64,000 nt of DNA. It comes from an uncultured Gammaproteobacteria bacterium. Its GTDB lineage: Bacteria > Patescibacteriota > Microgenomatia > Woykebacterales > RBG-16-39-9b. The position numbers and the translations under genes were made by a program. Position 1 is the first letter of the stretch. Every line of letters begins with the position of its first letter. The notes below the pieces were generated by a model. The model did not search any database. It saw nothing but the letters and a program-made list of their open reading frames with translations, and was not told where the DNA came from. The stretch spans positions 35,307 through 99,306 of the forward strand of contig CAYIWY010000001.1 of the NCBI GenBank assembly GCA_964367355.1, given 5' to 3'. Positions 992 to 56,517 of this stretch are shown here, one piece after another.

Positions 992-1132
992 AATTTACGT
1001 AAGGTTAGAAAAGAACAGAAGGAAGCGAGGGATTTTTTGGTACCTAAAACCTCAACACTATAAGACATAGTATTGAGATTCTAGAAACCACCAGAAGTGC
1101 GGTTCTCTAGCGGTTCAAGGAGGTTTGTCCCC

Positions 1133-1321: not shown

Positions 1322-1780
1322 TTCTCACAGACACGCAGCCATGAGGGGGAGTTTGACTAGGCGAAAGCTGAAAATCAAACTCCCCCACCAGAAATAGTGG
1401 AGGTGACTTGGTACAAATTTAGCCATAACCCGAGATGGCGCAAACATAAGGGACGGCTCGGTATCAGTGCAAAATAAGCACGAAACCGTCCCCTAAATTC
1501 TAATCACTACGAACTTGGCTGGAGAGAGGTTCAAAGGGAGGTGAATATTATTTTACCCTCTTACTTTCAGCCAAATTCGTGAGGATTAGGTTCATTTCAA
1601 GAAAGGATTTCATTTTGGCCTAGTCGGCGCCCTTTGACAATTTAAAGCAATCAGGAAACCGAGCAGTCCAGCTCGTCACCCACTTTAGGTGGTAGTGAAA
1701 CACATTTTTGTGTGTAGCCAGGCAGAGAAGGACACCTTGAACTCTGCTTGAAGACAGTTTAGTAGTACGGAGGAATATCG
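1322..1780 (+). other. GC-rich, highly structured non-coding leader or candidate ncRNA upstream of the zinc-ribbon gene
   Basis: There is a perfect 12-bp inverted repeat GGGGGAGTTTGA..TCAAACTCCCCC at 1343-1384. A 7-bp stem GGGACGG..CCGTCCC sits around 1449-1496 with a nested GTGC..GCAC hairpin. An imperfect long stem GGCTGGAGAGAGG..CCTCTTACTTTCAGCC follows. No credible ORF is present. The stretch ends at the GGAGGA SD for the 1781 gene. Confidence 0.35.
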
Positions 1781-2617: not shown

Positions 2618-2752
2618 CGCACCGCAATAGCGACGCGCTCAACAACCATCCAGATTCGGATTGAAGCTGGGTGTGAAATGAAAGGTAACCTCACATGAAG
2701 TGACGTTACTTCGAACAATCTCAGCCTCGATTTATCGAGCAAATAGCTGAGA

Positions 2753-2812
2753 GGGGAGGGTTTCGAACTTGTTCATCATGAACAGGCGCGAACCCTCCCT
2801 TTCTCTTTTTTA
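2753..2812 (+). terminator. Rho-independent terminator with a nested hairpin and a T-run
   Basis: GGGGAGGGTTTCG..CGAACCCTCCC is an 11-bp stem with one bulge. It encloses an inner TGTTCATcATGAACA palindrome and is followed by TTTCTCTTTTTT. Confidence 0.7.
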
Positions 2813-2925
2813 ATCACCTTTCTTTCAGACGAAGAAAGGTTTTTTTGTTTCCAATAATAGCAAGAAACTTGACTTCGAGGCCAAATATGATATTATAGGG
2901 CAGTAGTTACCCACAAATTGGAAAA

Positions 2926-3351
2926 ATGGGTAAAGGAGTTGGGATATTGGAAGTACAGTGCGCAGCTGACATTTTGGAAACTAGAGTCAGACTTAATGGC
3001 AGTATAATCTGCGAGGCAAAAAACTCATATCTGGAAACGAAACCATTAAGAACCTGGGCACGGATGGCCTCCGACCAACATTTCCCAGAATTGGGAAATG
3101 CACTATCTGAATACTATGGATCGATATTCAGATATGTGAAAGGCGCACGTAACAAGCTTTTCACTGGGTCGCTAACTCGCAAGGAAGCGCTTTTCGGCGA
3201 GTATGGGCCTTATGGAGAAAATCATGAAGCTTTGGTTACTTTCAACCGAATGATAGATAGTTTGGTGGTGGTAACCTACCAAGATCTCTCTGCGGAAGAT
3301 TTTGACTACGTGAAAAAGATTTTACAACAAATTGGATTGAGAGAAATTTAA
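2926..3351 (+). CDS. hypothetical protein
   Basis: 141-aa ORF with host-like GC. No recognised motifs. Confidence 0.45.
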   Translation: MGKGVGILEVQCAADILETRVRLNGSIICEAKNSYLETKPLRTWARMASDQHFPELGNALSEYYGSIFRYVKGARNKLFTGSLTRKEALFGEYGPYGENHEALVTFNRMIDSLVVVTYQDLSAEDFDYVKKILQQIGLREI

Positions 3352-20386: not shown

Positions 20387-21118
20387 ATGCCAGAATTGTC
20401 CGATAGACGCAAAGAACTACTGAAAATAATTATTGACGAATATATCGAAAGCGCCGAACCCGTTGGTAGCGAAACGATTGTCGAGAAGTACAATCTGGGT
20501 GTTTCTCCAGCAACGGTACGAAACGAAATGGTTGCTTTAACTAAGGAAGGGTTTTTGAAGCAACCGCACACTTCAGCCGGCCGTATCCCGACCCCAATGG
20601 GTTTGAAATTCTATATCAGCGGGTTGATGAAGGAAACCTCAATGCCAGTTCGAGACGAGGTTACGATCAAAGAATCACTTTGGGATCAGAGGTTTCAGTT
20701 TCACAAATTGCTTCGCCAAGCCGCCCGCGAACTCTCCTCCCAAACCGGAAATTTAGCCGTTGCCTACAGTGAGGATGGGGATATGTTCTATTCTGGGGCC
20801 GCCAATATTTTGGAAATGCCAGAATTTTATGATATTGATTTAACTAAAGCAGTTTTGGCAATGATTGATAGCCAAGAAACTATTTCTGAGATTTTCGATC
20901 GAGCAGTTGGTGAAGAACCAGTACACATATTGATTGGCGAAGAAATTGGTCAGGCTTATTTAGAATGTTGCGGAGTAGTTTTTGCTCCCTTTGGTTCTGG
21001 TAAAAAAAATGCTGGGGTTATTGGGGTGATTGGTCCTGCAAGAATGCATTTCAACCGAGTGATTCCGACGGTTCGTTACTTTGGTGATCTTTTAACTGAG
21101 CTCTCACGTAGTTACTAA
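20387..21118 (+). CDS. hrcA: heat-inducible transcription repressor HrcA
   Basis: N-terminal MPELSDRRKELLKIIIDEYIESAEPVGS winged-helix region. SD AGAGGAGG precedes the ATG at 20387. Confidence 0.85.
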   Translation: MPELSDRRKELLKIIIDEYIESAEPVGSETIVEKYNLGVSPATVRNEMVALTKEGFLKQPHTSAGRIPTPMGLKFYISGLMKETSMPVRDEVTIKESLWDQRFQFHKLLRQAARELSSQTGNLAVAYSEDGDMFYSGAANILEMPEFYDIDLTKAVLAMIDSQETISEIFDRAVGEEPVHILIGEEIGQAYLECCGVVFAPFGSGKKNAGVIGVIGPARMHFNRVIPTVRYFGDLLTELSRSY

Positions 21119-21188
21119 AATTCTGATTTTTGCAGGAATGTAACGACTACTAAAATTCTGATTTTTGCAGGAATGTAACGACTACTAA
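21113..21188 (+). repeat. perfect 35-bp tandem duplication (2 copies plus a 6-bp partial) spanning the hrcA stop codon
   Basis: TACTAAAATTCTGATTTTTGCAGGAATGTAACGAC occupies 21113-21147 and again 21148-21182, followed by TACTAA. Confidence 0.9.
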
Positions 21189-25514: not shown

Positions 25515-26068
25515 AAATCTGTGTTTTTGGAGACAGTATTACTTGGGGAGCTTTTGATCTAGAATCCGGTGGTTGGGTTGAGCGACTCAAAGTACATTTT
25601 TTTAATAACAATACCGAAACTTATATTTATAATTGTGGAGTTTCTGGGGACAAGGTAAACGACCTATTAAAAAGATTTGATACCGAAGCAGTTTCACGAA
25701 AACCGGACAAAATTATATTTTCCATTGGAATTAATGACAGTGCAAACAAAGATAACCCAGGTGGAACACCAATAGATGAATTCAAAAGTTCCTATAAAAC
25801 TCTTTTAGATAAAGCAGAAAAACTCACTAAAGATATTTTAGTAGTTGGGCTTAACAATATCGATGAGGCAAGTAACAAATTTGGTTATAGAAACGAAGAA
25901 ATTAAGAAATACAACGATGTAATCAATGAAATTTCCCAAGAAAGAAACCTCAAATTTGCGGACTGTTTTGGAATTTTGACAAAGGAAGATTTTTATACTG
26001 ATGGTGACCATCCAAATTCTAGTGGGCATCAGAAGATTTTTGAAAAAGTTTTACATATCCTCAAATAA
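25511..26068 (+). CDS. SGNH/GDSL hydrolase
   Basis: ICVFGDSITWG block I and DGDHP block V. The start overlaps the upstream stop (ATGA). Confidence 0.7.
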   Translation: MKICVFGDSITWGAFDLESGGWVERLKVHFFNNNTETYIYNCGVSGDKVNDLLKRFDTEAVSRKPDKIIFSIGINDSANKDNPGGTPIDEFKSSYKTLLDKAEKLTKDILVVGLNNIDEASNKFGYRNEEIKKYNDVINEISQERNLKFADCFGILTKEDFYTDGDHPNSSGHQKIFEKVLHILK

Positions 26069-26124
26069 ATTGACCCTAGTGGTATAATAAATTCCCATAT
26101 TTTGCGAAGGAAGGAGGTGAATAA

Positions 26125-26502
26125 ATGGTAGAGGTGCAAGTGGCAACTCCAAGTGGAGAACCGGTAGTGGAAGCCTGGTCGCACACTTCGAACGGAGACC
26201 GATTCCGGCCTTGGGTTTCGGAAGATCACTGGGTTTTTAAAGCAGGGGAAGATTGGGAGATAGTTCGTGACGAAGCTTCAGCAGTTGTATTTCGAATTCA
26301 TCCTGGGCATCATCTGATGTTCCCCGGCAGTGAGTTTGTGGCGACTACTGAGGACGGTCGAAAGATCCGCACTCGAGGTACGTTGACCACAGAAGGTGAC
26401 GAACCTGTGGATCTGGTTATGAAGGGCCACCGTATCAAGGCCTACCGTAGTCCGGACCACCGAAACTTTCCACCCCGGCCAATCGACATCGACAACTGGT
26501 AG
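26125..26502 (+). CDS. hypothetical protein, GC-rich (island B)
   Basis: Strong SD AGGAGGTG. Preceded by an extended -10 TGgTATAAT (26079-26087) and followed by a terminator. About 58% GC against a host of about 38%. Confidence 0.6.
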   Translation: MVEVQVATPSGEPVVEAWSHTSNGDRFRPWVSEDHWVFKAGEDWEIVRDEASAVVFRIHPGHHLMFPGSEFVATTEDGRKIRTRGTLTTEGDEPVDLVMKGHRIKAYRSPDHRNFPPRPIDIDNW

Positions 26503-26524
26503 CAGATAGGAAAAACCCACACAA

Positions 26525-26560
26525 GCCCCGAGGAGAAAAACTTCGGGGCCTTTTCTTTTC
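26525..26560 (+). terminator. Rho-independent terminator
   Basis: GCCCCGAGG..CTTCGGGGC followed by CTTTTCTTTT. A convergent minus-strand terminator (GGTGGATGGCAACATTCACC plus a T-run) sits at 26562-26596. Confidence 0.7.
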
Positions 26561-26600
26561 CAAAAAATAAAAGGTGAATGTTGCCATCCACCTTTTTGGG

Positions 26601-26876
26601 CTAACTTTCCACACCAACCCTTGCTAGTTCCTGATCAATTACCTCAACCACTTGCTGAATGGTATCTGGGTTTGCTTCGTCAGGAAATTCGAAATCCGGA
26701 TTATTTTTCTTTACCTCTTCTTCGAGACGGTAGAAGAAATAAGCTGTTCCGACAAACGCATCAACCAACCCAAGACTGGACACGGTGGCATTTGGCCCGA
26801 AAATTCGCTCGTTACGTTTACCTGGTTCGATTTCAAGAGCAACCCTCTTGACCAACTCGTAAGTTGTTTCAGCCAT
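26601..26876 (-). CDS. acyl-carrier-protein-like single-domain protein lacking the conserved phosphopantetheine Ser
   Basis: SLGLVDAF..RLEEEV..NPDFEFPDEANPDTIQQVVEVIDQ aligns with ACP helix II-IV (LGADSLD..EEEF..IPDE..I.TV..ID). The Ser position is Asp. Confidence 0.5.
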   Translation of the reverse strand: MAETTYELVKRVALEIEPGKRNERIFGPNATVSSLGLVDAFVGTAYFFYRLEEEVKKNNPDFEFPDEANPDTIQQVVEVIDQELARVGVES

Positions 26877-26885
26877 CCTCTTCTC

Positions 26886-27488
26886 CTATTTTCCTGTTGG
26901 CACTTTATCCAACTTTTTGTCCACCCGATCAACAACTTGTTGGATAGTGTCTATTTCCATCCAGTCATCTACATCAAGCTCGAAGTCTGGATGGTCAGTC
27001 TGGAAATCTTCTACTAATGCTTCAAAGAAGTCTATCACGCCAAGACCAAGCTTTTTGAGTGTAGATTCTGGTTTTACAGAATTCGGATCTAAGTCTTTCG
27101 TACCCCTAGTTCTCAGAAAGTTCATACGAACACGATTAAAAGTGCTGGACCAAACCCTTCTCTCCCGAGAGAACATAAGAGAAGTGTCTAGGGCTTTGAC
27201 TAAGTCCCCAACCGTTTTAAGTGCGTTATTGGGGTCGAAATCGATCGAGTTGCTGAAAAGATATTCTTCCTTCTTAAAAAGCTGCTGCAACTCTCCGAAA
27301 AAAAGAAAACCAGCCCAGAGTGGTTGTCTGGTGCTACCAAAGATATCAAGTAGCGGTGTCTCTGGATTGATACCCGTTTCGGGAATCGTGATGGCCTTTT
27401 GTTCAACGATAACTCGGAAAACCTTCTGGAAAGTCGTCTCTACTTTCTCTGTCACTTGTCTTTCTCCTTGCTGAACTCTCGAGGACAA
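26886..27488 (-). CDS. protein with two tandem ACP-like domains (paralog of the 26601-26876 gene)
   Basis: The C-terminal domain KKLGLGVIDFFEALVEDF..HPDFELDVDDWMEIDTIQQVVDRVD matches the 91-aa protein. The N-terminal half (LLDIFGS..ELQQLFKKEEYLF..IDFDPNNALKTVGDLVKAL) follows the same pattern. Confidence 0.5.
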   Translation of the reverse strand: MSSRVQQGERQVTEKVETTFQKVFRVIVEQKAITIPETGINPETPLLDIFGSTRQPLWAGFLFFGELQQLFKKEEYLFSNSIDFDPNNALKTVGDLVKALDTSLMFSRERRVWSSTFNRVRMNFLRTRGTKDLDPNSVKPESTLKKLGLGVIDFFEALVEDFQTDHPDFELDVDDWMEIDTIQQVVDRVDKKLDKVPTGK

Positions 27489-27510
27489 TATAACACAACT
27501 GAATTAATTA

Positions 27511-27550
27511 GAAAAATTAAAGGCCTTGTACAAATTTTGTACAAGGCCTT
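27511..27550. terminator. perfect palindrome AAGGCCTTGTACAAAttTTTGTACAAGGCCTT with flanking T/A runs; bidirectional terminator
   Basis: Seen directly, between the 27557-27955 and 26886-27488 genes. Confidence 0.65.
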
Positions 27551-27556
27551 TTGGGT

Positions 27557-27955
27557 TTATCCCGGGACCAATTCTTTTTCTCCGGTCAGGACTAGCTCGA
27601 CGATCTCGTGAGACTTAAGCGCATCCGAGCGTTGATTACACGCTGACTGAGCCCTTGCCTTCGCAACCTGGTCAATTTCTTCGAGGGACCAAGAAGAATC
27701 CATCTCTGTTTCAAACGAAAACTTTCTGCCGGAAACGGTTTCGACGTTAACAACGACTTTGTAATGGTGTTGAGTAACAGCCGGTTGATCCATAACTCTC
27801 CTTTCGGCAACCTCCGGTTCTAGCCGTCTTGTCCGTACCGCTGGTTCGCGGTTGTCGCAAGCAGGGCTACCCCAACCGTTGTCCTCATCTCCTTCACGAC
27901 GTGCAGGTTCTCGATTATCACAAGCGCCCCATCCCATTAGACCTCTCCTTTCCAA
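27557..27955 (-). CDS. hypothetical protein with a tandem Cys-containing repeat (GWGACDNREPA and GWGSPACDNREPA)
   Basis: The direct repeat sits in the N-terminal third. The C-terminal part appears globular. GC-rich. Confidence 0.5.
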   Translation of the reverse strand: MERRGLMGWGACDNREPARREGDEDNGWGSPACDNREPAVRTRRLEPEVAERRVMDQPAVTQHHYKVVVNVETVSGRKFSFETEMDSSWSLEEIDQVAKARAQSACNQRSDALKSHEIVELVLTGEKELVPG

Positions 27956-28068
27956 TTTCTGCTTGGATTGTAAAGCAAAAAGCTATTTTTGACAAGCAAG
28001 ATTATAATTGTAATTGGTTATAGGTCTTCCTATAATTTATCCAAGGTTGGTTTTGAAAGGAGAGAAAA

Positions 28069-47000: not shown

Positions 47001-47048
47001 AAATTTACTTGATTGAGAAACTTATTACTGATATTCTTGACCACAGAG

Positions 47049-48875
47049 ATGACTGCAAAAGAACTACGAGAAAAATATTTAAGATTCTTCGAGAGCAAAG
47101 GGCATAAAGTTATCCCTTCAGCTACTCTTGTTCCGGAACATGATCCAACGGTACTTTTTACCACCGCCGGAATGCACCCGTTGATCCCATACTTAATTGG
47201 ACAAGAACATCCTCAAGGTAAACGTTTGACCAATGTTCAAAAATGCCTGCGGACTGACGATATCGATGATGTTGGCGACAACTGGCACAATACTTTTTTT
47301 GAAATGCTGGGCAACTGGTCACTTGGTGATTTAGATTCCAAAGGGAGCGCAGGCACTGTAGGTGGCTACGGAAAAAAAGAAGCAATAATCTGGTCCTACG
47401 AATTTTTAATCAACGAGCTGCAGCTAGATCCAAATAGAATTTCCGTGACTGTTTTTGGCGGTGATCCGGAAATACCTGGTATTTTGGAAGACACTGAATC
47501 AGTCGAAATTTGGAAAGAGTTAGGCATTCCTGAGGAGCGTATATTCCGCCTTGGAAAAACAGACAATTGGTGGGGGCCAGTAGGGGAAACCGGACCTTGT
47601 GGACCGGATACTGAAATGTTCTATGACACAGGCAAAGGGGATCACGGTAAAGTTTGCCGACCCGGGGAGGCTTGTGGGAAATACACGGAAATTTGGAACG
47701 ATGTTTTCATGGAATACAACCGTACCAAAGATGGAAAATATGAGACGTCAAAACAAAAAAATGTTGATACAGGGATGGGATTAGAACGAACAATTGCCCT
47801 TTTGCAAGGTCGAGAAAATATTTACGAAACAGAGCTTTTTTCACCAGTACTGCAGCTGATTAAAGATTTAGCAACTGACTACAAAGAAACATCCGCAAGA
47901 ATAGTTGCTGACCACTTGCGATCAGCCACCTTCTTATTGTCCGATAAAATTATTCCGGCAAACGTTGAACGTGGTTATGTTCTGCGCAGATTAATCCGAC
48001 GAGCTATTCGCCACGCCCGCTTGTTGGGAATTAATGGCAGTTTTGCTGCCAAAATAGCTGAAAAATTTATTGAAATTTATAAAGATGAGTATTCTGAACT
48101 TGTCGATAATGCTGAATTAATTTTCCGGGAACTAAACATTGAAGAAGAGAAATTTCAGAAAGCTTTGGCTTCAGGTCTTCGTGAATTTGAAAAATTCGGT
48201 GAGAAATTAACCGGTAAGGATGTTTTCTATCTTTATGAATCCTTTGGTTTTCCACCAGAGTTAACCTACGAACTCGCCAGTGAAAAAGGCATAAAAGTTA
48301 ACCATGATGAGTTTGAAGTAGAACTTGTTCGGCATCAAGAAACTTCCAAAGCTGGTAGTGAGAAAAAATTTGCTGGGGGACTTGCTGATCATACGGAAAT
48401 TACCGTCCGTGGCCATACTGCTACCCATCTGCTTCACCAGGCCTTGAGAGATGTTTTAGGTGGTTCGGTCCACCAAACTGGGTCTAATATTACTCCCGAG
48501 CGAATTCGCTTTGACTTTTCTTACGGTGAAAAAATGACAGAGGAACAAATAAAAAAAGTTGAAACAATCGTAAATTCAAAAATTCAAGCAGATTTGCAGG
48601 TCAAAAAAGAACTCCTGTCCCAAGACGAAGCCGATAAAAAAGGAGCTATTGGTTTATTTAAAGAAAAATACGGCGACAAGGTGTCAATTTATGAAATCGG
48701 TCCTTCGACCCATTCGACGGACTCAGGGCAAGCAAACTCAGGACGAGGTTACTCTGTTGAATATTGTGGTGGCCCGCATGTGGAACATACCTCTGAGGTT
48801 GGAAGGTTCAAGATAATAAAAGAAGAGTCAGTTTCCGCTGGTCAAAGACGAATCAAAGCAGTTTTAAATCCCTAG
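47049..48875 (+). CDS. alaS: alanine--tRNA ligase (C-terminally truncated form)
   Basis: Class II motifs, and the editing-domain HTATHLLHQAL and CGGPHV zinc motif. The C-Ala domain is absent. The start was moved to MTAKELREKY. Confidence 0.9.
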   Translation: MTAKELREKYLRFFESKGHKVIPSATLVPEHDPTVLFTTAGMHPLIPYLIGQEHPQGKRLTNVQKCLRTDDIDDVGDNWHNTFFEMLGNWSLGDLDSKGSAGTVGGYGKKEAIIWSYEFLINELQLDPNRISVTVFGGDPEIPGILEDTESVEIWKELGIPEERIFRLGKTDNWWGPVGETGPCGPDTEMFYDTGKGDHGKVCRPGEACGKYTEIWNDVFMEYNRTKDGKYETSKQKNVDTGMGLERTIALLQGRENIYETELFSPVLQLIKDLATDYKETSARIVADHLRSATFLLSDKIIPANVERGYVLRRLIRRAIRHARLLGINGSFAAKIAEKFIEIYKDEYSELVDNAELIFRELNIEEEKFQKALASGLREFEKFGEKLTGKDVFYLYESFGFPPELTYELASEKGIKVNHDEFEVELVRHQETSKAGSEKKFAGGLADHTEITVRGHTATHLLHQALRDVLGGSVHQTGSNITPERIRFDFSYGEKMTEEQIKKVETIVNSKIQADLQVKKELLSQDEADKKGAIGLFKEKYGDKVSIYEIGPSTHSTDSGQANSGRGYSVEYCGGPHVEHTSEVGRFKIIKEESVSAGQRRIKAVLNP

Positions 48876-48928: not shown

Positions 48929-48958
48929 TTGACAGAAACTATAGGACTGTAGTATATT
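48929..48958 (+). promoter_or_regulatory. AT-rich sigma70-like promoter TTGACA, 18 bp, TATATT, facing GC-rich island D
   Basis: Seen directly. The GC jump begins at about 48966. Confidence 0.5.
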
Positions 48959-49005: not shown

Positions 49006-49788
49006 ATGGTTACTGCCACAGCCGCAAAGAACGGCGCATCTGCCGAACCTGTGACATCGCGCCGCGACACTCGCGCCAGCAAGGTTTCGGCGGTCAAGAC
49101 AGAGCAATCGTCCAAGTCCAACACGGGTTGGATGCACGTCAGGATTCACTGTGTCGGGCGCACCCCCCTGCTGATGGATCCCATGACTGATGGGACCATC
49201 GAGGAGCTGGAAACTGGGGTTCGCAAGCCGATCAACAAGCAACTGACGCGTTACCAGGTCTGCGAACCCAAAGTCATGCACAATGCTGCTGGCTTGATCG
49301 CGGTCCCCATCGACAACTTCTTCGCCTGCACTGTCGAGGCCGGCCGGAGAATCCCGTTTCAGAAGATGAGCAAGATGAGTACGGCTACCAGCACGACTTT
49401 GCCGGAGTACTTCCGCTTCATCTCGGAGGATCTGGTACTACTCGACAATAAGGGTAAGCCACTGCCGGACTGGGACGGGAAGTCGAAGAACGGCAGCTGG
49501 AGCGTCGATGTGCGCCGTGGTTGTCTCAAGGATGGCACGGCTGTGCCGATCCGGCGGCCGAAGTTCGACCACTGGGAATTCGATGTCGAGTTCGAGTATG
49601 ACATGGGAGTCATCTCGGACCAGAAGCTTCTCGATCTGATCAAGATCGCCGGCACGACCATGGGGCTGTGCAGCTTCCGGCCGAACAAGAAGGGTCGCTT
49701 TGGCACCTTTGCGATGACGCGCTGGGAAGAGATCGCTCGCCGTGAACAGGATACCGAGGTTGAGATAGTCAGGTTGAAGGCCGCGTAA
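49006..49788 (+). CDS. hypothetical protein (island D gene 1), GC-rich; possible glycine-rich loop near the C-terminus
   Basis: SD AAAGGAA. 260 aa. Low-complexity N-terminus. C-terminal GTTMGLCSFRPNKKGRFGTF is loosely reminiscent of a RAMP/Cas6 G-rich loop; this is speculative. Confidence 0.55.
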   Translation: MVTATAAKNGASAEPVTSRRDTRASKVSAVKTEQSSKSNTGWMHVRIHCVGRTPLLMDPMTDGTIEELETGVRKPINKQLTRYQVCEPKVMHNAAGLIAVPIDNFFACTVEAGRRIPFQKMSKMSTATSTTLPEYFRFISEDLVLLDNKGKPLPDWDGKSKNGSWSVDVRRGCLKDGTAVPIRRPKFDHWEFDVEFEYDMGVISDQKLLDLIKIAGTTMGLCSFRPNKKGRFGTFAMTRWEEIARREQDTEVEIVRLKAA

Positions 49789-49847
49789 CAACAAAGGGTG
49801 ACGTACAGTACGTTTCGTTAGGTTGGCACAACTGCACTGTCGTCATT

Positions 49848-49899
49848 TGCACTACAGGGTGGGGAACTAGGAGTCAACTTCTTTTTCCCCACCAAAACT
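49848..49899 (+). terminator. hairpin GGGTGGGGAA..TTCCCCACC plus T-run after gene 1; its 5' arm resembles the array-unit head
   Basis: CAGGGTGGGG is shared with unit R10. Followed by AAAACTCTTTTTTGG. Confidence 0.5.
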
Positions 49900-50042
49900 C
49901 TTTTTTGGTGGTTTGGTATCGGAATAAATTTCGTTACTAGAGCATCAAAACAAATACTTGGAGAAGATCAATCCAGAGTTGGGCCAAGCATTGTGGACAT
50001 ACCTGCCCTTTCGTCTACTGCTGCCCACTCCGCTGCGTCATG

Positions 50043-51304
50043 GGGCTGGATCCGATTATCGCAAGACGATCGGATCTGCCGACACTAACTACCTCGGCGT
50101 TGATGAGTGCGTTTCACTGACGTGAACTGCTTTGCACTTTAATGCGCTCGAGTTAAGTAGAGGGCTGGGGATCCGGAGAGAAATCAAAGGATCTCTGCCA
50201 ACCTTTTGTTTTCAAGTAGCCTGGGGCGGACTTCATAACAGTGGAGTTTCCTGGGGTCACCTGCAGGGCTGGGTTCCGAGAGGAAACAATCGGAACCTGC
50301 CACCTTGTTGACGGACTAAGCTGACGTTCAGTGTCGAACCGTTCGGTTCAGCACGCTCACGTGCGTCAGGTTTTAGTGGGGTGCAGGGCTGGGGGTTTCC
50401 TTGGGAAACTAGGGAAACCTCTGCCAACCAATGTTCGGTGCGCAGTTACCTCTCGTATTGATCGCCTTCCTGCTGTTGGCTACTCTGTCGTTTGGTGACC
50501 TGCTGTAATCTGAAGGGCTGGGTCCGTTTACAGAAATGTATCGGACTTGCCAAATTTGTGGTCTAGGGTGCGGTTTGGTTAACTCCACTAGCGTGCGGAA
50601 AACTGGCCTACACCTAACTGACGTCAGGGGCTGAGGACCCGGAGAGAAATCAAAGGGTCTTTGCCAACAAACTCAATTCGTTCCCCTGCTGTGAAGATGG
50701 CTTAACTTCAGTTAAGTTCTCCTTACTTACGTGGGGTATCGTGGAGTATGGGGCTGGGGATTTGCTCTGGAGAAATCTATTCAAGTCCCTGCCAACAACT
50801 TAAGTTGAACTTAGCTGCAGCTGACTTCTGTTCGCTGGGCTATTGTTACGTGCAGGGCTGGGTCCGTTTACAGAAATGTATCGGACCTGCCAAACCAATT
50901 TTGATGAATTGATTCTGAAAACATAAATTTCAAAACCAGCTCATCAGGGTTTTGAGAGAGTTATCAAGTGCGCTAGACCACTGTTCCCTAAAGCACCCAA
51001 GGGTTCAGCCCACTTTCGTGGTCTTCGCAATGGTACTGGGCTGGGGACCCGGAGAGAAATCAAAGGGTCTCTGCCAAAACGCTTTCAACTTAGGTACTGT
51101 ACCCCGTTCTTCGGTAAACAGTCCTGTCGCATTGTTTAGGGCTGGGGAGTTGGTTAACTTTGGTTTTCTAACTCCCTGCCAACCGAATTAGATTTTCGAG
51201 GGGTAGTGTTGTGTATGGCAGCGTCATGCTCCGTCTGCTTCAGTACACCAGGTTGCCCCATAGTTCAGGACTGCCCCCGATGTTTCGAAAGAATTATCGG
51301 GGGT
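50043..51304 (+). repeat. array I of structured repeat units with the pattern CAGGGCTGGG, variable hairpin, CTGCCAAC (11 units)
   Basis: Units: 50043-50083, 50162-50202, 50266-50304, 50386-50428, 50515-50554, 50628-50668, 50751-50796, 50855-50894, 51038-51080, 51138-51182, plus a degenerate unit at 51261-51304. Stems of 5-7 bp covary (GATCC/GGATC against GACCC/GGGTC; GTCCG/CGGAC; GGATCTG/CAGATCC; GGTTTCC/GGAAACC). Loops usually contain AGAAAT. Inter-unit segments are unique and 60-184 bp long. There is no ORF. Confidence 0.85.
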
Positions 51305-51365
51305 GTCATTTTTCAATATTTACCTAAAAAATTCTGTCCCATTTTGTAACAAGGCACTTTAACAA

Positions 51366-53213
51366 GTGACAAATAGTAAAGGAGAGGGGACAACAGTGCC
51401 TTCATCGCAACATCGTGGTAGGCCTTCTTTCGAGGAGCTTACCTCCGCCTGGCCAAGGCGGCGACTTGGACCCATGTGGTCCGAACAAGAAGAAGCCTTT
51501 GAGGTCATTGCCAAACATGGCAGTTGTACCTTGGAGGTACCGACTGGTATGGGCAAAACCGCTATCGGTTACACGACGCTCAAGGCGTTGGGCAACCGTG
51601 GTGAAGGCCCACTTTTCTACATCGTGCCGACCAAAACTTTGGTTGGACAGGTAGCTGAGATGTTTCCAGACGTCACTCCGGCCTATGGTCGGAATGAGTT
51701 TGATTGTCTCTACTACGACGAGCCGTACAAAGCGGACGAAGTCCCTTGCCTGCTATTGCAGGACTGTGTCCATCGGGTCGATCAAGAGACTGGCCGGACT
51801 GCTGGTCGAGGAGCAGAACGTTGCCCCTACTACCACGCCAAGTACCAAGCCAAACGCGATCCGAGTCGGATCGTAGTCTGCTCGATGTCGTTTTACCTTT
51901 TCACCCAGCTTTTCTCCAAGGAGTTTGAGAATCCAGCTGGTTTGGTGATCGACGAAGTTCAGCAGATGCCAGATGTGGTCCGTAATGCTCTGTCTTTTGA
52001 CATCACGGACTATCAGTTGCAACGGGCGATCAACCTACTGTCAACCACAGCTGCGGATGAAGCTGCTGGTCTCGAGATCTTTCTCGATACTATGTTGCGG
52101 ATCATTCGACTCAAGCCTTCGAAGGTGCCGGTAATGCTCGAAGATGTCGAGTTGCAGGAACTGCTGTTGGTCTTGCGAGATATTGACCGCGATGGTCTGC
52201 GTCGCAAGATCGCCGAGGGTATCCGCTCGGGCGACATTGATGTCGTCAAAGAGCGAGAAGTCCTGACCAAAGTTGAGCGACTGGTCTATGACCTGTACCG
52301 TTACGTGCGAGCGTTTGAATTTTCGCTCAGCAACGAAACACAACGGCCACTCAACTACACCTACGCAGTTTGGGACAAAGAACCAGCTGAGGGCAAAAAG
52401 GTCCACAACAAGCTGACCGTCAAGTCCTACTACGTCGCGCCGGTGATCAAGAAACTGCTGTCAGCCAATCTGACAGTGAGTTTGGGAGCGACTATCGGCG
52501 ACCCGAACGTGTTTGGTTACGAGTCAGGGATCGATCCGAGGCGAACGCCGATGTTCACTTTTGACTCGAGTTTTCCGGTCGGCAACACCCGGATCTACGT
52601 TCCGTCGGACTCCTTTAGCTTGGCGGAAAAAGAGGTCAAAAATCGTGGTAAAGCCACAATGGTCCGTCGGATGGTTCGCTCGGCCAAAACCTTCAACCAA
52701 AAAGGTGAGCGCGTGTTGTGCTTGGTCGTCTCTGACACCGAGCGGCAGCGCTTTATTCGGATGGCCACTGAAGACGATGTCAACTTCATCACTTACGGTG
52801 ATGGCGTGACCGCGCGCGAAGCTGCGGACCGCTTCCGTGCCGGAGAGGGTAAAGTCCTGCTTGGGACAGACGCCCAGTACGGCCAGGGTGTTGACCTGCC
52901 AGACGGTATCTGTCGGGTGATCTTCTACCTGCGACCCGGTTATCCGCGACCAGATGATCCTCAGACCCAGTTTGAGGAAAAGCGTTTTCGCTCACAGAAG
53001 TGGGCAATCTGGCAGTGGCGACTGATCATGAAGGCGATGCAGGTGCGCGGTCGTAACATCCGTGGTCCGGAAGACAGGGGAGTGACGATTTTCTTCGACA
53101 GCCGTTTCCGGCGTTTCCTTTTCGGAGGGATGCCCAAGTGGCTCCAGCCGTCATATCGTGGAGATCTGACACTGCAAGAGTGCATTGAGGACGCGCTCAA
53201 GGTGTTGAAGTAG
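51366..53213 (+). CDS. Rad3/XPD/DinG-family SF2 helicase with an Fe-S domain (island D gene 2)
   Basis: Walker A TGMGKT. Four Cys lie between motifs I and II (CLYY, PCLLL, DCVHR, ERCPYY). Motif II is VIDEVQQM (a DEAH-like DEVQ). The C-terminal LLGTDAQYGQGVDLPDG and QVRGRNIRGPEDRGVTIFFDSR match DinG motifs V/VI. An alternative start GTG 51396 has SD AAGGAGAGGGG. Confidence 0.8.
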   Translation: MTNSKGEGTTVPSSQHRGRPSFEELTSAWPRRRLGPMWSEQEEAFEVIAKHGSCTLEVPTGMGKTAIGYTTLKALGNRGEGPLFYIVPTKTLVGQVAEMFPDVTPAYGRNEFDCLYYDEPYKADEVPCLLLQDCVHRVDQETGRTAGRGAERCPYYHAKYQAKRDPSRIVVCSMSFYLFTQLFSKEFENPAGLVIDEVQQMPDVVRNALSFDITDYQLQRAINLLSTTAADEAAGLEIFLDTMLRIIRLKPSKVPVMLEDVELQELLLVLRDIDRDGLRRKIAEGIRSGDIDVVKEREVLTKVERLVYDLYRYVRAFEFSLSNETQRPLNYTYAVWDKEPAEGKKVHNKLTVKSYYVAPVIKKLLSANLTVSLGATIGDPNVFGYESGIDPRRTPMFTFDSSFPVGNTRIYVPSDSFSLAEKEVKNRGKATMVRRMVRSAKTFNQKGERVLCLVVSDTERQRFIRMATEDDVNFITYGDGVTAREAADRFRAGEGKVLLGTDAQYGQGVDLPDGICRVIFYLRPGYPRPDDPQTQFEEKRFRSQKWAIWQWRLIMKAMQVRGRNIRGPEDRGVTIFFDSRFRRFLFGGMPKWLQPSYRGDLTLQECIEDALKVLK

Positions 53214-53287
53214 AGAGTCAACCTGTGGCCTAGTCAAGTTAACCGAGCTGTTCTGTGGTGACTTGATGTCGGCTATTCAATTGCACA

Positions 53288-53882
53288 GGGTGGGGATCTG
53301 CTCTGGAGAAATCTATCCAGATCCCTGCCATTTTCTTTTTTCAACGAGTGCAGTTAGGCAGACAATGTCATTGTCCTGTTTACCTAACTGGTGTTCGCTG
53401 CAGGGCTGCCTCGATAAAACCGAAAGGATTTATCGGGGCGCCATTCTTTTGATAGTTTAATTTTGGAAATATTTTCAAAACTAGCCTATCAAAGAAAAAC
53501 GATATGGTATTCTTTTGTCGACGCGGCGGTCTTCAGTTCGCTAGCCCATGCTGCCGTTCGGTAGAGTCGGGAACGCTAGAGAGTACTGAACCGCAGTATG
53601 GGGCTGGGAACCTGCTCTGAGTAATCATCAGGTTCCTGCCAACGTTCACTTTCGTGCGGTTCAACAGCGTAGGGACTCGCCAACTGTGGTAAAGTTCTCT
53701 ATTGTAGTGTTAACCGCGCTGGTCTAAAGGGCTGGGGATCTGCTCTGGAGAAATCTATCCAGATCCCTGCCAATTTCACAAACTGACTCAAGCAGGGCCA
53801 TGTCCACAGGAGTTAGGTGGCCTGCGCTTTTGTCTAGTTTAGGGCTGGGTCCGATTTCAGAAATGTTTTCGGACCTGCCAAC
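53288..53882 (+). repeat. array II of the same structured repeat units downstream of the helicase (5 units)
   Basis: Units: 53288-53331 (ends CTGCCAT), a degenerate unit at 53403-53444 (similar to 51261-51304), 53601-53643, 53729-53774, 53842-53882. Units 50751-50796, 53288-53331 and 53729-53774 form one family. Units 50515-50554, 50855-50894 and 53842-53882 form another. Confidence 0.85.
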
Positions 53883-54067
53883 TCAATTTCGGCGGGATTC
53901 AAGTTTTTATTAACTTGGTCCCGCTTTTTCTTTTACCAAATTTTGTTTCGAGATTGAAAATGGTATTATAATAAGAGACGATCTGCCAAGATACCGCGTT
54001 AAATGTAATTTAGATAAATTAAGAACTATTTTATGCGCGCGATATTTCGTCATCTAAAACTGCCAAA

Positions 54068-55030
54068 ATGAAATTTATTCCAAATATTATTCCCAAAAGA
54101 GATAAAAAACATTCCCGCTTTGTCGTTTTGGATATTGGTTTGGGAAGAGTCAATATTGCCATTTTTGATACCACGCCCGAAGGTCCGAAGTTTGTTGGAG
54201 TTGGTAGACGCAGCTTTGGAGCAGCCGATACGATTTTAGACGCTACCTTGGAAGCCACTGACGCTCTGGGAGCAATCGTTGACGAGCTGCCTTCAGCTGC
54301 AATCGTTGGGGTAAGTGGCGGAAAACTCGATACAATTTCCACAATCGCAAAATACACCCGCGAAAAACCAAAACAAGCAATCGATAAAAATGAAGCCTCG
54401 TCAGTCCTAGAAAAAGTTTCTGCAGAAGAAAAAGAAAATCTCAAAATATTTTTTTCAACAATAACTAGTGCAAACATCGACGGAGCAAAACTTACAAACC
54501 CAATCGGGGTTAAGGGGGAAAAAGCAGAGGTAAATTGTTTTATTGCCTTTAAACCAGAAGAAGAGCTGAAGATTTATGACCAAATTATCGATGAGCTAGA
54601 ACTGAAACCAGAAAAAATTATCCCAACTTCATTTGCTGTAACCCAAATGGTAAGTAAAGATTTGACCGGAAATACTCTGCTACTTAGAATTGGCCAAACA
54701 AAAACAGAAGCAGCTCAAGTACACAGAGGAAATTTAATTAAAGTAACAAACATTGACCTTGGGGCGGAACAGCTTGATTATTACCCATTTGCTTTGGAAG
54801 CATTGTTGGAAAAACAAAACCCCGAGGAAAGAACTAGCCTTATTTGGCTTTATGCTGACAGCGACGAGGTTAATTTAGTTGATATTGAAGAAAAACTAGC
54901 AAGTGTGGATTGGAAAAAGAAATTTGATTTTAAAGAAGAAATTAAGATAGAAAGAGCTTCAGGAGAAAATAATTTTGGTCAATCGGATATGGGTTTACTT
55001 GCCCTTTCTTTACAGGAGATTTTTAACTGA
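54068..55030 (+). CDS. actin-like ATPase, FtsA/PilM family
   Basis: The N-terminal phosphate-1-like motif VVLDIGLGRVNIAIFD fits the ASKHA fold. Confidence 0.4.
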   Translation: MKFIPNIIPKRDKKHSRFVVLDIGLGRVNIAIFDTTPEGPKFVGVGRRSFGAADTILDATLEATDALGAIVDELPSAAIVGVSGGKLDTISTIAKYTREKPKQAIDKNEASSVLEKVSAEEKENLKIFFSTITSANIDGAKLTNPIGVKGEKAEVNCFIAFKPEEELKIYDQIIDELELKPEKIIPTSFAVTQMVSKDLTGNTLLLRIGQTKTEAAQVHRGNLIKVTNIDLGAEQLDYYPFALEALLEKQNPEERTSLIWLYADSDEVNLVDIEEKLASVDWKKKFDFKEEIKIERASGENNFGQSDMGLLALSLQEIFN

Positions 55031-56517
55031 TGCGTCAACTCGAGATCGATTCACAAACCAATCTTTCACATATTCTTTCAGAACTTAAAACCACTGATGA
55101 AAATGGGCTGGAATTAAATGTTGTTCCAAATGAAACTACTGTACTGGACAATCCAATTCATAGATTAATTATTGAAAAAGCCGCTAAAGATTTTAACAAA
55201 GAAGTTGTTTTTCCAGCTTCTCCAATTGAAGACGCTCCGGAGGTGGAAAGTGACGATTTGGGTTTTGTCGAAGGTGAGGATATCGTTGCTAAAACCCCGA
55301 TAGAAGAAGTCCACAAAATGATTCAGCCGGCAGCAGTTATTTCTAAAGAAGTACTTGCCAAAAAGAAAAAGTTTACTCTACCGAAATTCCTCAAAAATAA
55401 ATTAGTCTTACTTGGTATCGGGGTATTTGTCTTAATAATTGCGTTCGGTCTTGGAATTTATTTTTTACCCTTCGCCAAAATAGAATTAGTACTAAGCAGT
55501 GAAACAAAAGACTCACAAATAACTTTGACTGGAGATACGACGCAAAAAGAAGTCGATATTAAAAATAAAGTCGTTCCCATGAAAGCAATTGAAGTTTCTA
55601 AAGAAGGCGATGATGAGCAAACAACAACCGGCAAGAAAACAGTTGGCACTGTAGCTAAAGGCAGAGTTACTATCACAAACAGAAGTGTAGAAAAAACTTT
55701 TATTGCCGGAACAATCTTAACCCCAGTTGCTACTAGTAGTGCTACCTTTAAGTTGGATAATGACGTGACTATTCCGGCTTCGCAATGGCCTCTAGGTTCG
55801 GACGGGACAATTGGTGTTAATGTTACCGCAACTGCAGCAGGAACAGCAGGAAATTTGGCTGCAAACACCTCATTCAAAGTTGGAAGTGCCTCGACCATAG
55901 AAATTTCTGCGAAAAACGACCTAGCTTTATCTGGAGGATCTTCCAAACAGGTAACGGTTGCTTCTGCTGATGACCGGGAAGTTTTAAAGAAGCAGATCGT
56001 CGATAAGCTAACAGCCGATGCCAAGAAAGATACGGAGAAAAAAACTAAGGATTCAATTGTGCCCGACGAGGGCTCGATTGTCGAAGTCGTCAAAGAGGAA
56101 TATGAGCCAAAAGATATAAATGCCGAAGCAGAAAAACTCAAAGCAACAATTTCGATAAAAGTTAAAACCTTTGTCTTTGATAGAAATGATTTAACAAAAG
56201 TCTTTGTGGAATCGTTGGAAAAATCGGCGAAAGGCTTTAGTGTTGATAAGGAAGTTTCCAAAATAACCCTGCAGCAAACTGAAAAAACTTCCGAAACAGT
56301 TGCAAAATTTATCGGTAAAATTAAAGCAGTTTTGCATCCTGAAATTAATAAAAAAGAGATAACTCGGCAAACAACCGGCAAGAGTTTGAACGACGTTGAT
56401 TCGTATTTAGACTCGTCCGGTAATATAAGCAGTTACAAAGTAACTACCTTTCCGGGATTTTTTAAGTTTATGCCGTTTAACCAAAGTAAGATTGAAGTAA
56501 GGCTGAAAAACGACTAG
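55030..56517 (+). CDS. hypothetical bitopic membrane protein with a Thr/Val-rich extracellular domain
   Basis: TM around residues 120-145 (LVLLGIGVFVLIIAFGLGIYFLPF). Translationally coupled to the upstream gene (ATGA overlap). Confidence 0.4.
   Translation: MRQLEIDSQTNLSHILSELKTTDENGLELNVVPNETTVLDNPIHRLIIEKAAKDFNKEVVFPASPIEDAPEVESDDLGFVEGEDIVAKTPIEEVHKMIQPAAVISKEVLAKKKKFTLPKFLKNKLVLLGIGVFVLIIAFGLGIYFLPFAKIELVLSSETKDSQITLTGDTTQKEVDIKNKVVPMKAIEVSKEGDDEQTTTGKKTVGTVAKGRVTITNRSVEKTFIAGTILTPVATSSATFKLDNDVTIPASQWPLGSDGTIGVNVTATAAGTAGNLAANTSFKVGSASTIEISAKNDLALSGGSSKQVTVASADDREVLKKQIVDKLTADAKKDTEKKTKDSIVPDEGSIVEVVKEEYEPKDINAEAEKLKATISIKVKTFVFDRNDLTKVFVESLEKSAKGFSVDKEVSKITLQQTEKTSETVAKFIGKIKAVLHPEINKKEITRQTTGKSLNDVDSYLDSSGNISSYKVTTFPGFFKFMPFNQSKIEVRLKND

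What the first reader, a model, noticed from the sequence alone, without database searches (positions are those of the whole stretch)
51366..53213. Fe-S Rad3/XPD/DinG-family helicase embedded inside the repeat array
The protein has Walker A TGMGKT, a four-Cys insertion between motifs I and II (as in the XPD/DinG Fe-S domain), motif II DEVQ in place of DEAH, and DinG-like C-terminal motifs (TDAQYGQGVD; QVRGRNIRGPEDRGVTIFFDSR). DinG-type helicases are the signature effector of type IV-A CRISPR-Cas (CasDinG). Here the helicase sits with a repeat array but without Cas5/Cas7/Csf1 or an adaptation module. It could be a highly reduced, diverged type IV-like system, or an unrelated helicase-plus-structured-RNA module.
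Basis: partly seen in the sequence, partly recalled or inferred. Interest (0 to 1): 0.8.

Follow-up and report, generated by a model that had tools for sequence, protein, structure and literature searches.

The report
Helicase-linked VIPR guide-RNA locus
The helicase is real, but it is the accessory gene of a VIPR system, a recently described CRISPR-like RNA-guided DNA-recognition system. The locus has a small Cas7-like protein just upstream and 17 guide-RNA genes around the helicase, in the chromosome of a candidate-phyla-radiation bacterium.

Summary
It is an XPD/DinG-type SF2 helicase that keeps the four Fe-S cysteines.

The repeats around it are not a CRISPR array. They are 17 units of about 100-190 nt. 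Each unit has 9-15 pentamers with the pattern R-S-Y-N-N (phase 3 is G/C in 87.5%, phase 4 is pyrimidine in 82%). Each unit ends in a 31-42 nt hairpin, most of them GGCUGGG...CUGCC-A.

The unannotated 260-aa ORF upstream (49006-49788) is a homologue of Vipr. A profile of 56 relatives matches the solved SUSP1 Vipr protein at E 9e-14, and the predicted fold matches Csm3/Cas7.

The locus therefore fits VIPR (Viral Interference Programmable Repeat; bioRxiv 10.64898/2026.04.26.720920, 2026): a Vipr RAMP, pentamer-repeat vrRNAs with a 3' tail, and an accessory (vap) gene, here the helicase.

The trio recurs in Patescibacteria. In 61 of 65 related loci, pentamer tracts lie within 400 nt of the helicase gene.

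It is not type IV CRISPR and not a housekeeping DinG. No targets were found, so the pairing rule and the helicase's role are inferred. It is a new member of a newly known kind.

The parts
48929..48958 (+). Promoter-like site (TTGACA-18-TATATT) upstream of vipr
   Evidence: matches 11 of 12 consensus positions. This is a consensus match only, and the count of such sites in the region is no higher than in shuffles.
49006..49788 (+). vipr: 260-aa minimal RAMP (Cas7-like), the predicted vrRNA-binding filament protein. The first ~40 residues are a low-confidence basic extension.
   Evidence: A profile of 56 homologues hits PDB 36pp_D 'SUSP1 Vipr protein' at E 9.1e-14 over 189 of 204 profile positions, including the G-loop. 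phrog_4652 is matched by 55 of 56 homologues. The AF2 model (pLDDT 68) matches Csm3/Cas7 in Foldseek at prob 1.0, E 8e-5. A homologue was found in 58 of the 65 fetched Patescibacteria loci that carry this helicase. No Pfam, PADLOC or NCBIfam hit.
49789..51310 (+). vrRNA array A: 12 units. Each is a tract of R-S-Y-N-N pentamers followed by a 3' hairpin tail. Tails: 49858-49893, 50044-50080, 50163-50199, 50267-50301, 50387-50425, 50516-50551, 50629-50665, 50752-50793, 50856-50891, 51039-51075, 51140-51180. A variant, terminator-like tail lies at 51274-51304.
   Evidence: Pentamer register and statistics. Tract detector. Hairpin energies are -16 to -26 kcal/mol, and every tail is more stable on the + strand than its reverse complement. 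No Rfam family matches.
51366..53213 (+). vap: XPD/DinG-type Fe-S SF2 helicase (615 aa from the first GTG; probable start 51396). Motif II is DEVQ.
53214..53885 (+). vrRNA array B: 5 units. Tails: 53289-53329, 53404-53442, 53602-53640, 53730-53771, 53843-53879. The first two tails are followed by T-runs.
53892..53934 (+). Intrinsic-terminator-like hairpin plus T-run closing the module
   Evidence: Read from the sequence. Window 53842-53933 is 97.8% identical to L002 10056-10147. The scan tool did not list it.

Best explanation
The 5-kb GC-rich island at about 48.9-53.95 kb is a chromosomal VIPR system of a Patescibacteria (CPR) bacterium, probably Saccharimonadia. Its parts are vipr (49006-49788), 17 vrRNA genes in two same-strand arrays, and an Fe-S XPD/DinG-type helicase as the accessory (vap) gene. 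The rest of this statement is a proposed mechanism. It is inferred from the published type II VIPR work and from type IV-A CRISPR, and is not shown here. The arrays are transcribed in the helicase direction and give RNAs of roughly 100 nt or more. One Vipr protomer binds each pentamer. It sequesters the conserved R-S-Y bases and presents the two variable bases. The 3' hairpin caps the filament. The filament reads double-stranded DNA of a phage or plasmid through a gapped code and forms an R-loop. The helicase then loads on a displaced strand and translocates 5'->3'. That would strip proteins or unwind the target, strengthening or extending interference beyond simple roadblock repression.
For: Shown here:

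(1) Vipr homology by profile, E 9.1e-14 to the solved SUSP1 Vipr, and a RAMP fold.

(2) Strict 5-nt periodicity upstream of every tail. In the window, phase 3 is G/C in 210 of 240 positions (p 5e-27), phase 4 is T in 159 of 240 (p 1.5e-36), and phase 2 is purine in 150 of 240. The register runs into the 5' arm of the tail. An unbiased scan of the 64-kb window for 5-nt periodicity puts its top windows in the two arrays.

(3) Structured 3' tails whose stems differ between copies but always pair. They contain 31 G-U pairs among 246 pairs, and all are more stable on the + strand.

(4) Conserved association in 65 related loci. There are 581 pentamer tracts on the helicase strand against 97 on the other strand. 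Tracts lie within 400 nt of the helicase gene in 61 of 65 loci. vipr was found in 58 of 65 loci. Control XPD/DinG loci have 20 and 15 tracts in 206 kb.

(5) The module sits in at least three unrelated chromosomal contexts, one next to a serine recombinase.

(6) Guides turn over while tails are kept. The vipr-plus-array cassette is replaced between strains whose flanks are 99.6% identical.

(7) The SUSP1 residues that hold G2 and Y3 (R138, W178, R179) align with R184 (invariant), F224 and R225 (90% or more conserved). The residues that hold G1 (H17, D177) are not conserved. This matches a motif in which only S-Y is strict (companion paper 10.64898/2026.04.26.720927).

From the literature: the definition of VIPR, the existence of YNNNG/NNNNG variant repeats, and the existence of types with helicase or nuclease vap genes (10.64898/2026.04.26.720920).
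Against: No expression or processing data exist for this locus. No target was found under any rule tried. The one metagenome match looks like chance. The pairing rule for this degenerate repeat is unknown. The Vipr model has only moderate confidence (pLDDT 68, from a 5-sequence alignment). Motif II is DEVQ instead of DEAH, so helicase activity is assumed; the variant is at least conserved in the subclade. I could not read the preprint's figures or data S4, so I cannot say whether its helicase-bearing type is this family.
Confidence: 0.85

Rival explanations
1. A highly reduced or diverged type IV CRISPR-Cas system in which the DinG-like helicase is the CasDinG effector and the repeats are a degenerate CRISPR array.
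For: The PADLOC profile PDLC01439 'typeIV_DinG, CAS-IV-A associated' matches full length at E 3.3e-44. A RAMP plus a DinG-type helicase plus guide-like RNAs is the same functional trio as type IV-A.
Against: The CasDinG-specific PADLOC profiles are weak (Csf4_0_IVA 1e-4, Csf4_3_IVE 5e-6). No CasDinG chain appears in the profile search of PDB sequences at E <= 0.001, while XPD (6e-21) and DinG (2e-12) do. In fold search, DinG and XPD rank above CasDinG. The four Fe-S cysteines are kept; CasDinG lacks the cluster (my own knowledge). The island holds no Csf1/2/3/5 genes and no Cas1/2. The repeats are not identical copies, the period is 98-198 nt, and the 'spacers' are themselves pentamer repeats.
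Confidence: 0.04
2. A housekeeping XPD/DinG repair helicase of this lineage that happens to lie among REP-like or terminator hairpins, with no functional link to them.
For: The family is widespread in Patescibacteria at 45-69% identity. It has all helicase motifs and the Fe-S cysteines. In the close relatives L001 and L002 it sits at the same site between alaS and a conserved gene.
Against: NCBIfam DinG/YoaA/Rad3 scores are 36-45 bits against cut-offs of 247-789. The gene is accompanied by pentamer tracts in 61 of 65 loci and by vipr in 58 of 65. Its genomic context differs between lineages. It diverges faster than its neighbours: 66% identity against 95% for RpoB and 81% for AlaRS. The hairpins are preceded by phased pentamers, which REPs and terminators are not.
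Confidence: 0.05
3. A domesticated VIPR that regulates the host's own genes, as a programmable repressor set, rather than defending against mobile elements.
For: Published type II VIPR acts by transcriptional silencing. The module is chromosomal and syntenic in close relatives. The helicase family was not found in IMG/VR viral contigs.
Against: No self-match above shuffled controls was found in the 64-kb window. Guides turn over completely between strains whose flanks are 99.6% identical, which fits conflict better than regulation. Only 64 kb of the genome could be searched.
Confidence: 0.06

Closest known systems
VIPR systems (Viral Interference Programmable Repeat), type II of phage SUSP1 and the P. 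fulva prophage (bioRxiv 10.64898/2026.04.26.720920 and 10.64898/2026.04.26.720927)
   Same: A homologous Vipr RAMP of about 200 core residues. vrRNAs of about 100 nt made of 9-16 pentamer repeats followed by a conserved structured 3' tail. vrRNA genes on both sides of the protein genes. A two-gene vipr + vap layout. No CRISPR array and no Cas1/2.
   Different: The repeat is degenerate here: R-S-Y-N-N, with G or C at the second position, i.e. the 'YNNNG-type' variant rather than GGY-NN. The tail is a simple bulged hairpin, not a pseudoknot. vap is an Fe-S helicase rather than a small DNA-binding protein. The host is a CPR bacterial chromosome, not a phage. The array is much larger (17 units against 4).
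Helicase-bearing VIPR type. The preprint says types III-V encode 'nucleases or helicases' and that only III and V have nucleases, so this is presumably type IV.
   Same: A VIPR with a predicted helicase as its accessory gene.
   Different: I could not verify that this is the same family. Fig. 5A, fig. S17 and data S4 are not held as text, and the text names neither DinG/XPD nor Patescibacteria. According to the text, no experiment was reported for that type.
Type IV-A CRISPR-Cas with CasDinG (Csf4)
   Same: A RAMP-based, RNA-guided, nuclease-free DNA-binding complex paired with an XPD/DinG-superfamily helicase. No adaptation genes of its own.
   Different: There is no Csf1/Csf3/Cas6 and no CRISPR repeats. 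Pairing is predicted to be gapped rather than contiguous. The helicase keeps the Fe-S cysteines and is nearer to DinG/XPD than to CasDinG.
XPD/Rad3 and bacterial DinG helicases
   Same: A full-length fold match: E. coli DinG 6fwr at TM 0.71 and archaeal XPD at TM 0.66-0.68. Motifs I, II and VI. Four cysteines, with C153 of 'CPYY' aligning to XPD C190 of 'CPYF'.
   Different: It scores far below the equivalog cut-offs. Motif II is DEVQ in this subclade. It is accompanied by vipr in 58 of 65 loci and by vrRNA tracts in 61 of 65.
Csm3/Cas7 RAMPs of type III CRISPR
   Same: These are the best structural matches of the Vipr model: an RRM core and a glycine-rich loop.
   Different: Sequence identity is only 10-14%, and TM-scores are 0.4-0.55. 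Vipr is a single-RRM minimal protein in a non-CRISPR context.

Membership tests
VIPR system | A Vipr protein: a minimal RAMP homologous to the described Vipr family | tested here: met
   The A2 profile hits PDB 36pp_D SUSP1 Vipr at E 9.1e-14, with the G-loop aligned. Foldseek matches Csm3/Cas7 at prob 1.0.
VIPR system | vrRNA genes made of tandem pentanucleotide repeats, either GGY/NN or a related consensus (NNNGG, YNNNG, NNNNG) | tested here: met
   The pattern here is R-S-Y-N-N. Phase 3 is G/C in 87.5% and phase 4 is pyrimidine in 82% across 16 units x 15 pentamers (p 5e-27 and 1.5e-36). The same register is seen in L001, L002, L003 and L005.
VIPR system | A conserved structured 3' tail of about 40 nt after the repeat tract | tested here: met
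   There are 17 hairpins of 31-42 nt with dG -16 to -26 kcal/mol. The base of the stem is conserved (GGC..GCC-A) and the upper stems vary but always pair. It is a hairpin, not the SUSP1 pseudoknot.
VIPR system | An adjacent accessory (vap) gene with a predicted DNA-related function, and no CRISPR array or cas operon | tested here: met
   The helicase lies 1.6 kb downstream on the same strand. vipr and the helicase are the only two ORFs longer than 150 aa inside the island; the shorter ORFs there all overlap one of these two genes or the arrays. TRF finds no array there.
VIPR system | vrRNAs are expressed as transcripts of about 100 nt and co-purify with Vipr | not testable with these tools
   This needs small-RNA sequencing and a pull-down.
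VIPR system | Gapped (1-nt skip) recognition of double-stranded DNA targets in competing mobile elements | tested here: inconclusive
   No match above controls in the window or the fetched loci. Six IMG/VR scans gave 0 hits. One metagenome hit lies in rpsT of a high-GC bacterium and is judged to be chance.
Type IV-A CRISPR-Cas | Csf1 (Cas8-like), Csf2 (Cas7), Csf3 (Cas5) and Cas6/Csf5 genes | tested here: not met
   The island holds only two ORFs longer than 150 aa. PADLOC gives no hit for the 260-aa ORF.
Type IV-A CRISPR-Cas | A CRISPR array of near-identical repeats separated by spacers of uniform length | tested here: not met
   The hairpin copies differ from each other (60-91% identity to the reference copy within the repeat families). 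The period is 98-198 nt. The inter-hairpin sequence is itself a pentamer repeat.
Type IV-A CRISPR-Cas | A CasDinG-clade helicase with a vestigial Fe-S domain and no cluster cysteines (feature taken from my own knowledge) | tested here: not met
   C114, C134 and C153 are invariant and C128 is at least 90% conserved. C153 aligns to XPD C190. CasDinG ranks below DinG and XPD. The specific Csf4 profiles are weak.
XPD/Rad3/DinG Fe-S helicase superfamily (SF2) | Motifs I, II and VI, a four-Cys Fe-S insertion in HD1, an Arch insertion, and the Helicase_C_2 domain | tested here: met
   Pfam. Conserved columns. AF2 model with pLDDT 86 and a full-length match to DinG and XPD. Cluster binding itself was not tested.
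Housekeeping DinG / YoaA / Rad3 equivalogs | A score above the NCBIfam equivalog or subfamily cut-off | tested here: not met
   Scores are 36-45 bits against cut-offs of 247-789.

The most novel reading that the evidence does not exclude
This is an uncharacterised, helicase-coupled branch of VIPR that has been domesticated in CPR bacterial chromosomes. It would be a mechanistic counterpart, and possibly an evolutionary relative, of type IV-A CRISPR-CasDinG. It would use a relaxed R-S-Y-N-N code whose pairing rule may differ from the published 1-nt skip. Its guide repertoire would be renewed not by Cas1-Cas2 but by exchange of whole vipr+vrRNA cassettes and of single vrRNA units between strains.
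Probability: 0.35. Interest if true: 0.75.

Novelty: new member of a known kind. Interest (0 to 1): 0.55.

Why it matters
VIPR was described only in 2026. According to the preprint text, the experiments cover the small DNA-binding accessory protein of type II, plus small-RNA sequencing for types III and V. This locus is a clean natural example in which the RAMP-guide filament is paired with an Fe-S XPD/DinG helicase. That is the same partnership type IV-A CRISPR uses, so it offers a direct way to ask what a helicase adds to nuclease-free RNA-guided DNA binding.

It also shows three further things. CPR bacteria have tiny genomes and few known defences, yet this one spends 5 kb on 17 guides. The repeat code can be relaxed in step with loss of the G1-binding residues. 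And the guide sets are swapped as cassettes between near-identical strains.

Tried and rejected
- **CRISPR array.** TRF finds nothing in the region, and the repeats are not identical.
- **Known RNA families.** There is no Rfam hit at gathering score. The only hits at E <= 10 are microRNA-model matches far below their gathering scores.
- **tRNA-like units.** ARAGORN finds only three tRNAs, at about 33 kb.
- **Integron attC or REP elements.** I considered these from memory. I rejected them because there is no integrase, all copies are on one strand, G-U pairs work only on the + strand, and phased pentamers precede each hairpin.
- **Generic hairpin finders.** These were too noisy to map arrays in other loci. 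I replaced them with the S-Y pentamer-tract detector.
- **MAFFT alignment of the tails.** It misaligns the upper stems, so the RNAalifold covariation counts understate the pairing. I therefore built no covariance model.
- **The PADLOC 'typeIV_DinG' hit (3e-44).** It is not taken as CasDinG membership, for the reasons given in the membership test.
- **Deeper Vipr alignment for structure prediction.** The word-indexed search returned only 3-5 relatives, so the model rests on 5 sequences.
- **Target prediction.** I tried NN and NNN guides with skips of 0-3 against the window and 83 loci. I ran six gapped exact scans of IMG/VR. I ran one metagenome scan, and its single hit in rpsT of a 62-66% GC bacterium is judged to be chance.
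- **Helicase relatives in IMG/VR.** None were found.
Full report
**Observation.** The ORF at 51366-53213 (+) is real and encodes 615 aa.
- Walker A PTGMGKT;
- four cysteines (C114, C128, C134, C153) between motifs I and II;
- motif II DEVQ;
- TDAQYGQGVD;
- QVRGRNIRG...FFDSR.

Pfam reports Helicase_C_2, DEAD and DEAD_2. The in-frame GTG at 51396 follows an AGGAG by 11 nt (sequence) and is the more likely start.

The gene lies in an island of 49-55% GC within a genome of about 38% GC. Its neighbours are ordinary bacterial genes: ftsK, a rodZ-like gene, alaS, yceG and rpoB.

Same-strand repeats flank the gene on both sides. A test pattern for them matches 14 times in the window, 13 of them in these two blocks, against 2.6 expected.

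**The repeats are not a CRISPR array.** TRF sees no array here and Rfam has no family for them. The conserved element is a 31-42 nt hairpin, GGCUGGG-stem-loop-stem-CUGCC-A, with a bulged U. Its upper stem differs from copy to copy but always pairs. Energies are -16 to -26 kcal/mol. There are 31 G-U pairs among 246 pairs, and every hairpin is more stable than its reverse complement. This points to an RNA read in the helicase direction. Hairpin-to-hairpin spacing is 98-198 nt.

**The decisive feature is in the 'spacers'.** I laid the 75 nt upstream of each hairpin out in pentamers anchored on the hairpin start. A strict 5-nt register appears. In the window's 16 units x 15 pentamers:

| Phase | Composition | Test |
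|---|---|---|
| 2 | purine in 150 of 240 | – |
| 3 | G or C in 210 of 240 | chi-square p 5e-27 |
| 4 | T in 159 of 240 (pyrimidine 82%) | p 1.5e-36 |
| the other two | variable | – |

The unit is therefore R-S-Y-N-N, repeated 9-15 times and running into the 5' arm of the hairpin. An unbiased scan of all 64 kb for 5-nt periodicity puts its top windows in 50.0-51.3 kb and 53.2-53.75 kb. A twelfth upstream unit has a variant, terminator-like tail at 51274-51304 and was found by the tract detector. That gives 17 units in all.

**The missed gene.** The 260-aa ORF at 49006-49788 has no Pfam, PADLOC or NCBIfam hit. Homologues of it were found in 58 of the 65 fetched Patescibacteria loci that carry this helicase.

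A profile of 56 homologues matches one solved structure, PDB 36pp chain D, 'SUSP1 Vipr protein'. The match has E 9.1e-14 and spans nearly the whole profile, including the glycine-rich loop. 55 of the 56 homologues match phrog_4652. An AlphaFold model (pLDDT 68, pTM 0.64, from a shallow alignment) has a beta-alpha-beta-beta-alpha-beta core. It matches Csm3/Cas7 RAMPs in Foldseek at probability 1.0. That Foldseek library predates the Vipr entry.

**What is known about such systems.** Vipr is the protein of VIPR systems. These were described in two 2026 preprints (10.64898/2026.04.26.720920 and 10.64898/2026.04.26.720927). The published picture is as follows:
- Vipr is a minimal RAMP.
- The vrRNAs are about 100 nt long. 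They consist of 9-16 YNNGG pentamers followed by a conserved structured 3' tail.
- There is an accessory vap gene.
- One Vipr protomer binds each pentamer. It sequesters G1, G2 and Y3 and presents N4 and N5.
- N4 and N5 pair with double-stranded DNA while skipping every third target base. The result is transcriptional silencing.
- The Methods list variant repeats NNNGG, YNNNG and NNNNG.
- Seven types are defined. Types III-V carry 'nucleases or helicases', and only III and V carry nucleases.

The window's locus meets every sequence-level criterion (see the membership test). Its repeat is the YNNNG-type variant.

**Residue mapping.** This step is an inference from the alignment, the conservation columns and the companion paper.
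- SUSP1 R138 (thumb; holds G2) aligns with R184, which is invariant in the family.
- SUSP1 W178 (stacks on G2) aligns with F224.
- SUSP1 R179 (holds Y3) aligns with R225, which is at least 90% conserved.
- The G1 contacts H17 and D177 align with D58 and S223, and those positions are variable in the family.

This fits a repeat in which S-Y is strict and the first position is only purine-biased.

**The helicase.** The family alignment keeps C114, C134 and C153 invariant and C128 at 90% or more. C153 in 'CPYY' aligns with C190 of human XPD in 'CPYF', which is one of the four Fe-S cluster ligands of XPD (my own knowledge).

The AlphaFold model (pLDDT 86, pTM 0.84) was compared with solved structures:
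- It matches E. coli DinG (6fwr) at E 1e-23 and TM 0.71.
- It matches archaeal XPD at E 1e-20 to 1e-22.
- CasDinG entries follow at about 1e-17 and TM about 0.6.

By sequence profile, XPD (6e-21) and DinG (2e-12) are found, but no CasDinG chain appears at E <= 0.001. The PADLOC model PDLC01439 'typeIV_DinG' scores 3e-44, but the CasDinG-specific models score only 1e-4 and 5e-6. I therefore read the strong hit as a general XPD/DinG signal. NCBIfam housekeeping models are far below their cut-offs.

DEVQ replaces DEAH only in the window and its two closest relatives (P0002, P0004). It is thus a conserved subclade variant, not a one-off lesion.

**Conservation of the module.** The helicase family has 188 hits of about 600 aa. 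The named ones are all Patescibacteria. In 65 loci I detected 581 S-Y pentamer tracts on the helicase strand and 97 on the other strand. A tract lies within 400 nt of the helicase gene in 61 of 65 loci. Loci carry up to 43 tracts (L049); two loci have none. Eighteen control loci with unrelated XPD/DinG genes have 20 and 15 tracts in 206 kb.

A distant member, L005 (51% identity), has five upstream and three downstream units whose tails are GGGGYGGG...CCRCC-A.

The genomic context varies between lineages:
- alaS/rpoB in the window, L001 and L002;
- relA/hisS in L005;
- next to a large serine recombinase and a Replic_Relax protein in L003.

The helicase family was not found in IMG/VR. The Vipr profile finds 5,416 cluster representatives in the 1.84-billion-protein library at E <= 0.001.

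**Dynamics.** L001 and L002 have flanks that are 99.6% identical and the same helicase protein. Between the alaS stop and the last tail, their DNA is non-homologous. The vipr genes are 40% identical, and there is one upstream vrRNA in L001 against six in L002.

Between the window and L001, identity is 95% for RpoB, 81% for AlaRS, 66% for the helicase and 34% for Vipr (42% against the Vipr of L002). The last downstream tail and the terminator are 97.8% identical between the window and L002, while the guide in front of that tail is unrelated. Conversely, one guide (window 50794-50855) is shared almost verbatim with L002. This is the pattern expected of a conflict system whose guides are renewed by recombination.

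**Mechanism.** Identity as a VIPR locus is well supported. The following steps are inferred, not shown:
- that the arrays are transcribed and processed;
- that a filament forms;
- that DNA is read by a gapped code;
- that the helicase is recruited to the R-loop, by analogy with CasDinG in type IV-A.

AT-rich inserts follow tails that end in T-runs (49894-49990, 50892-50960, 53443-53520). This suggests several transcription units, but the consensus scan supports only the promoter-like site upstream of vipr.

**Targets.** I took N4 N5 as phase 5 plus the next phase 1, with a 1-nt skip, and also tried NNN guides and skips of 0-3. Nothing exceeded shuffled controls in the window or the fetched loci. 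Six exact gapped scans of IMG/VR returned nothing. The single metagenome match lies in rpsT of a 62-66% GC bacterium and looks like chance. The rule and the targets remain open.

**Verdict.**
- The interpretation as a reduced type IV CRISPR is not supported. Its weaker alternative, a 'helicase plus structured-RNA module', is right.
- The precise answer is a helicase-associated VIPR system.
- It is a new member of a kind described in 2026. It belongs to a branch the preprint lists but, as far as its text shows, did not characterise.

Noticed in passing
L001:7021-7871 versus L002:6160-7864: Two strains have flanks that are 99.6% identical and the same helicase protein. They carry non-homologous vipr genes (40% aa identity) and different upstream vrRNA arrays (1 unit against 6). 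The cassette between the alaS stop and the last tail has been replaced.
   Followed up: partly
window 50794-50855 and L002:7808-7868: One guide tract is shared almost verbatim between loci whose helicases are only 66% identical. In the two loci it is followed by different tails. This suggests either exchange of single vrRNA units or strong selection on this guide.
   Followed up: partly
L049, L052 and L046 (whole loci): Array size in the family varies widely. L049 has at least 43 pentamer tracts (15 upstream and 28 downstream of the helicase). L052 has 25 and L046 has 21. Some loci, such as L003, have a single vrRNA.
   Followed up: partly
L021, L022, L025, L037, L045, L055, L057: Seven loci carry two vipr paralogues near the helicase. 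In L026, L029 and L030 vipr is on the opposite strand. In L010, L022, L042, L047, L052, L057 and L063 it lies downstream of the helicase.
   Followed up: no
window 51951-51962 (motif II): DEVQ replaces DEAH only in the window and its two closest relatives (P0002, P0004). The other 23 aligned family members have DExH. Whether this changes ATPase coupling is unknown.
   Followed up: partly
window 49894-49990, 50892-50960, 53443-53520: AT-rich inserts sit inside the arrays directly after tails that are followed by T-runs. They may be internal terminator/promoter pairs that split the arrays into several transcription units. The sigma-70 scan did not call promoters there.
   Followed up: no
window 1000-3000 and 26000-28000: There are two more GC-rich islands (45-55% GC) whose ORFs have no Pfam hit. 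A strong hairpin at 1345-1386 ends in ...CCCCCACCA. No 5-nt periodicity and no vipr homologue were found there.
   Followed up: partly
window 47013-48875: The alaS ORF is only 620 aa (580 aa in L001). Pfam covers the catalytic and SAD domains, and there is no C-terminal C-Ala/DHHA1 part.
   Followed up: no
window 21113-21188: A perfect tandem repeat: 35-nt unit, 2.2 copies, 100% match.
   Followed up: no
window 55030-56517: A conserved neighbour gene (495 aa; 502 aa in L001) has a weak Baseplate_J-like Pfam hit (E 1e-4). That is odd for a gene between housekeeping genes.
   Followed up: no
L003:9939-13019: In one lineage the module sits next to a Replic_Relax protein and a large serine recombinase. 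This fits carriage on an integrative element.
   Followed up: no
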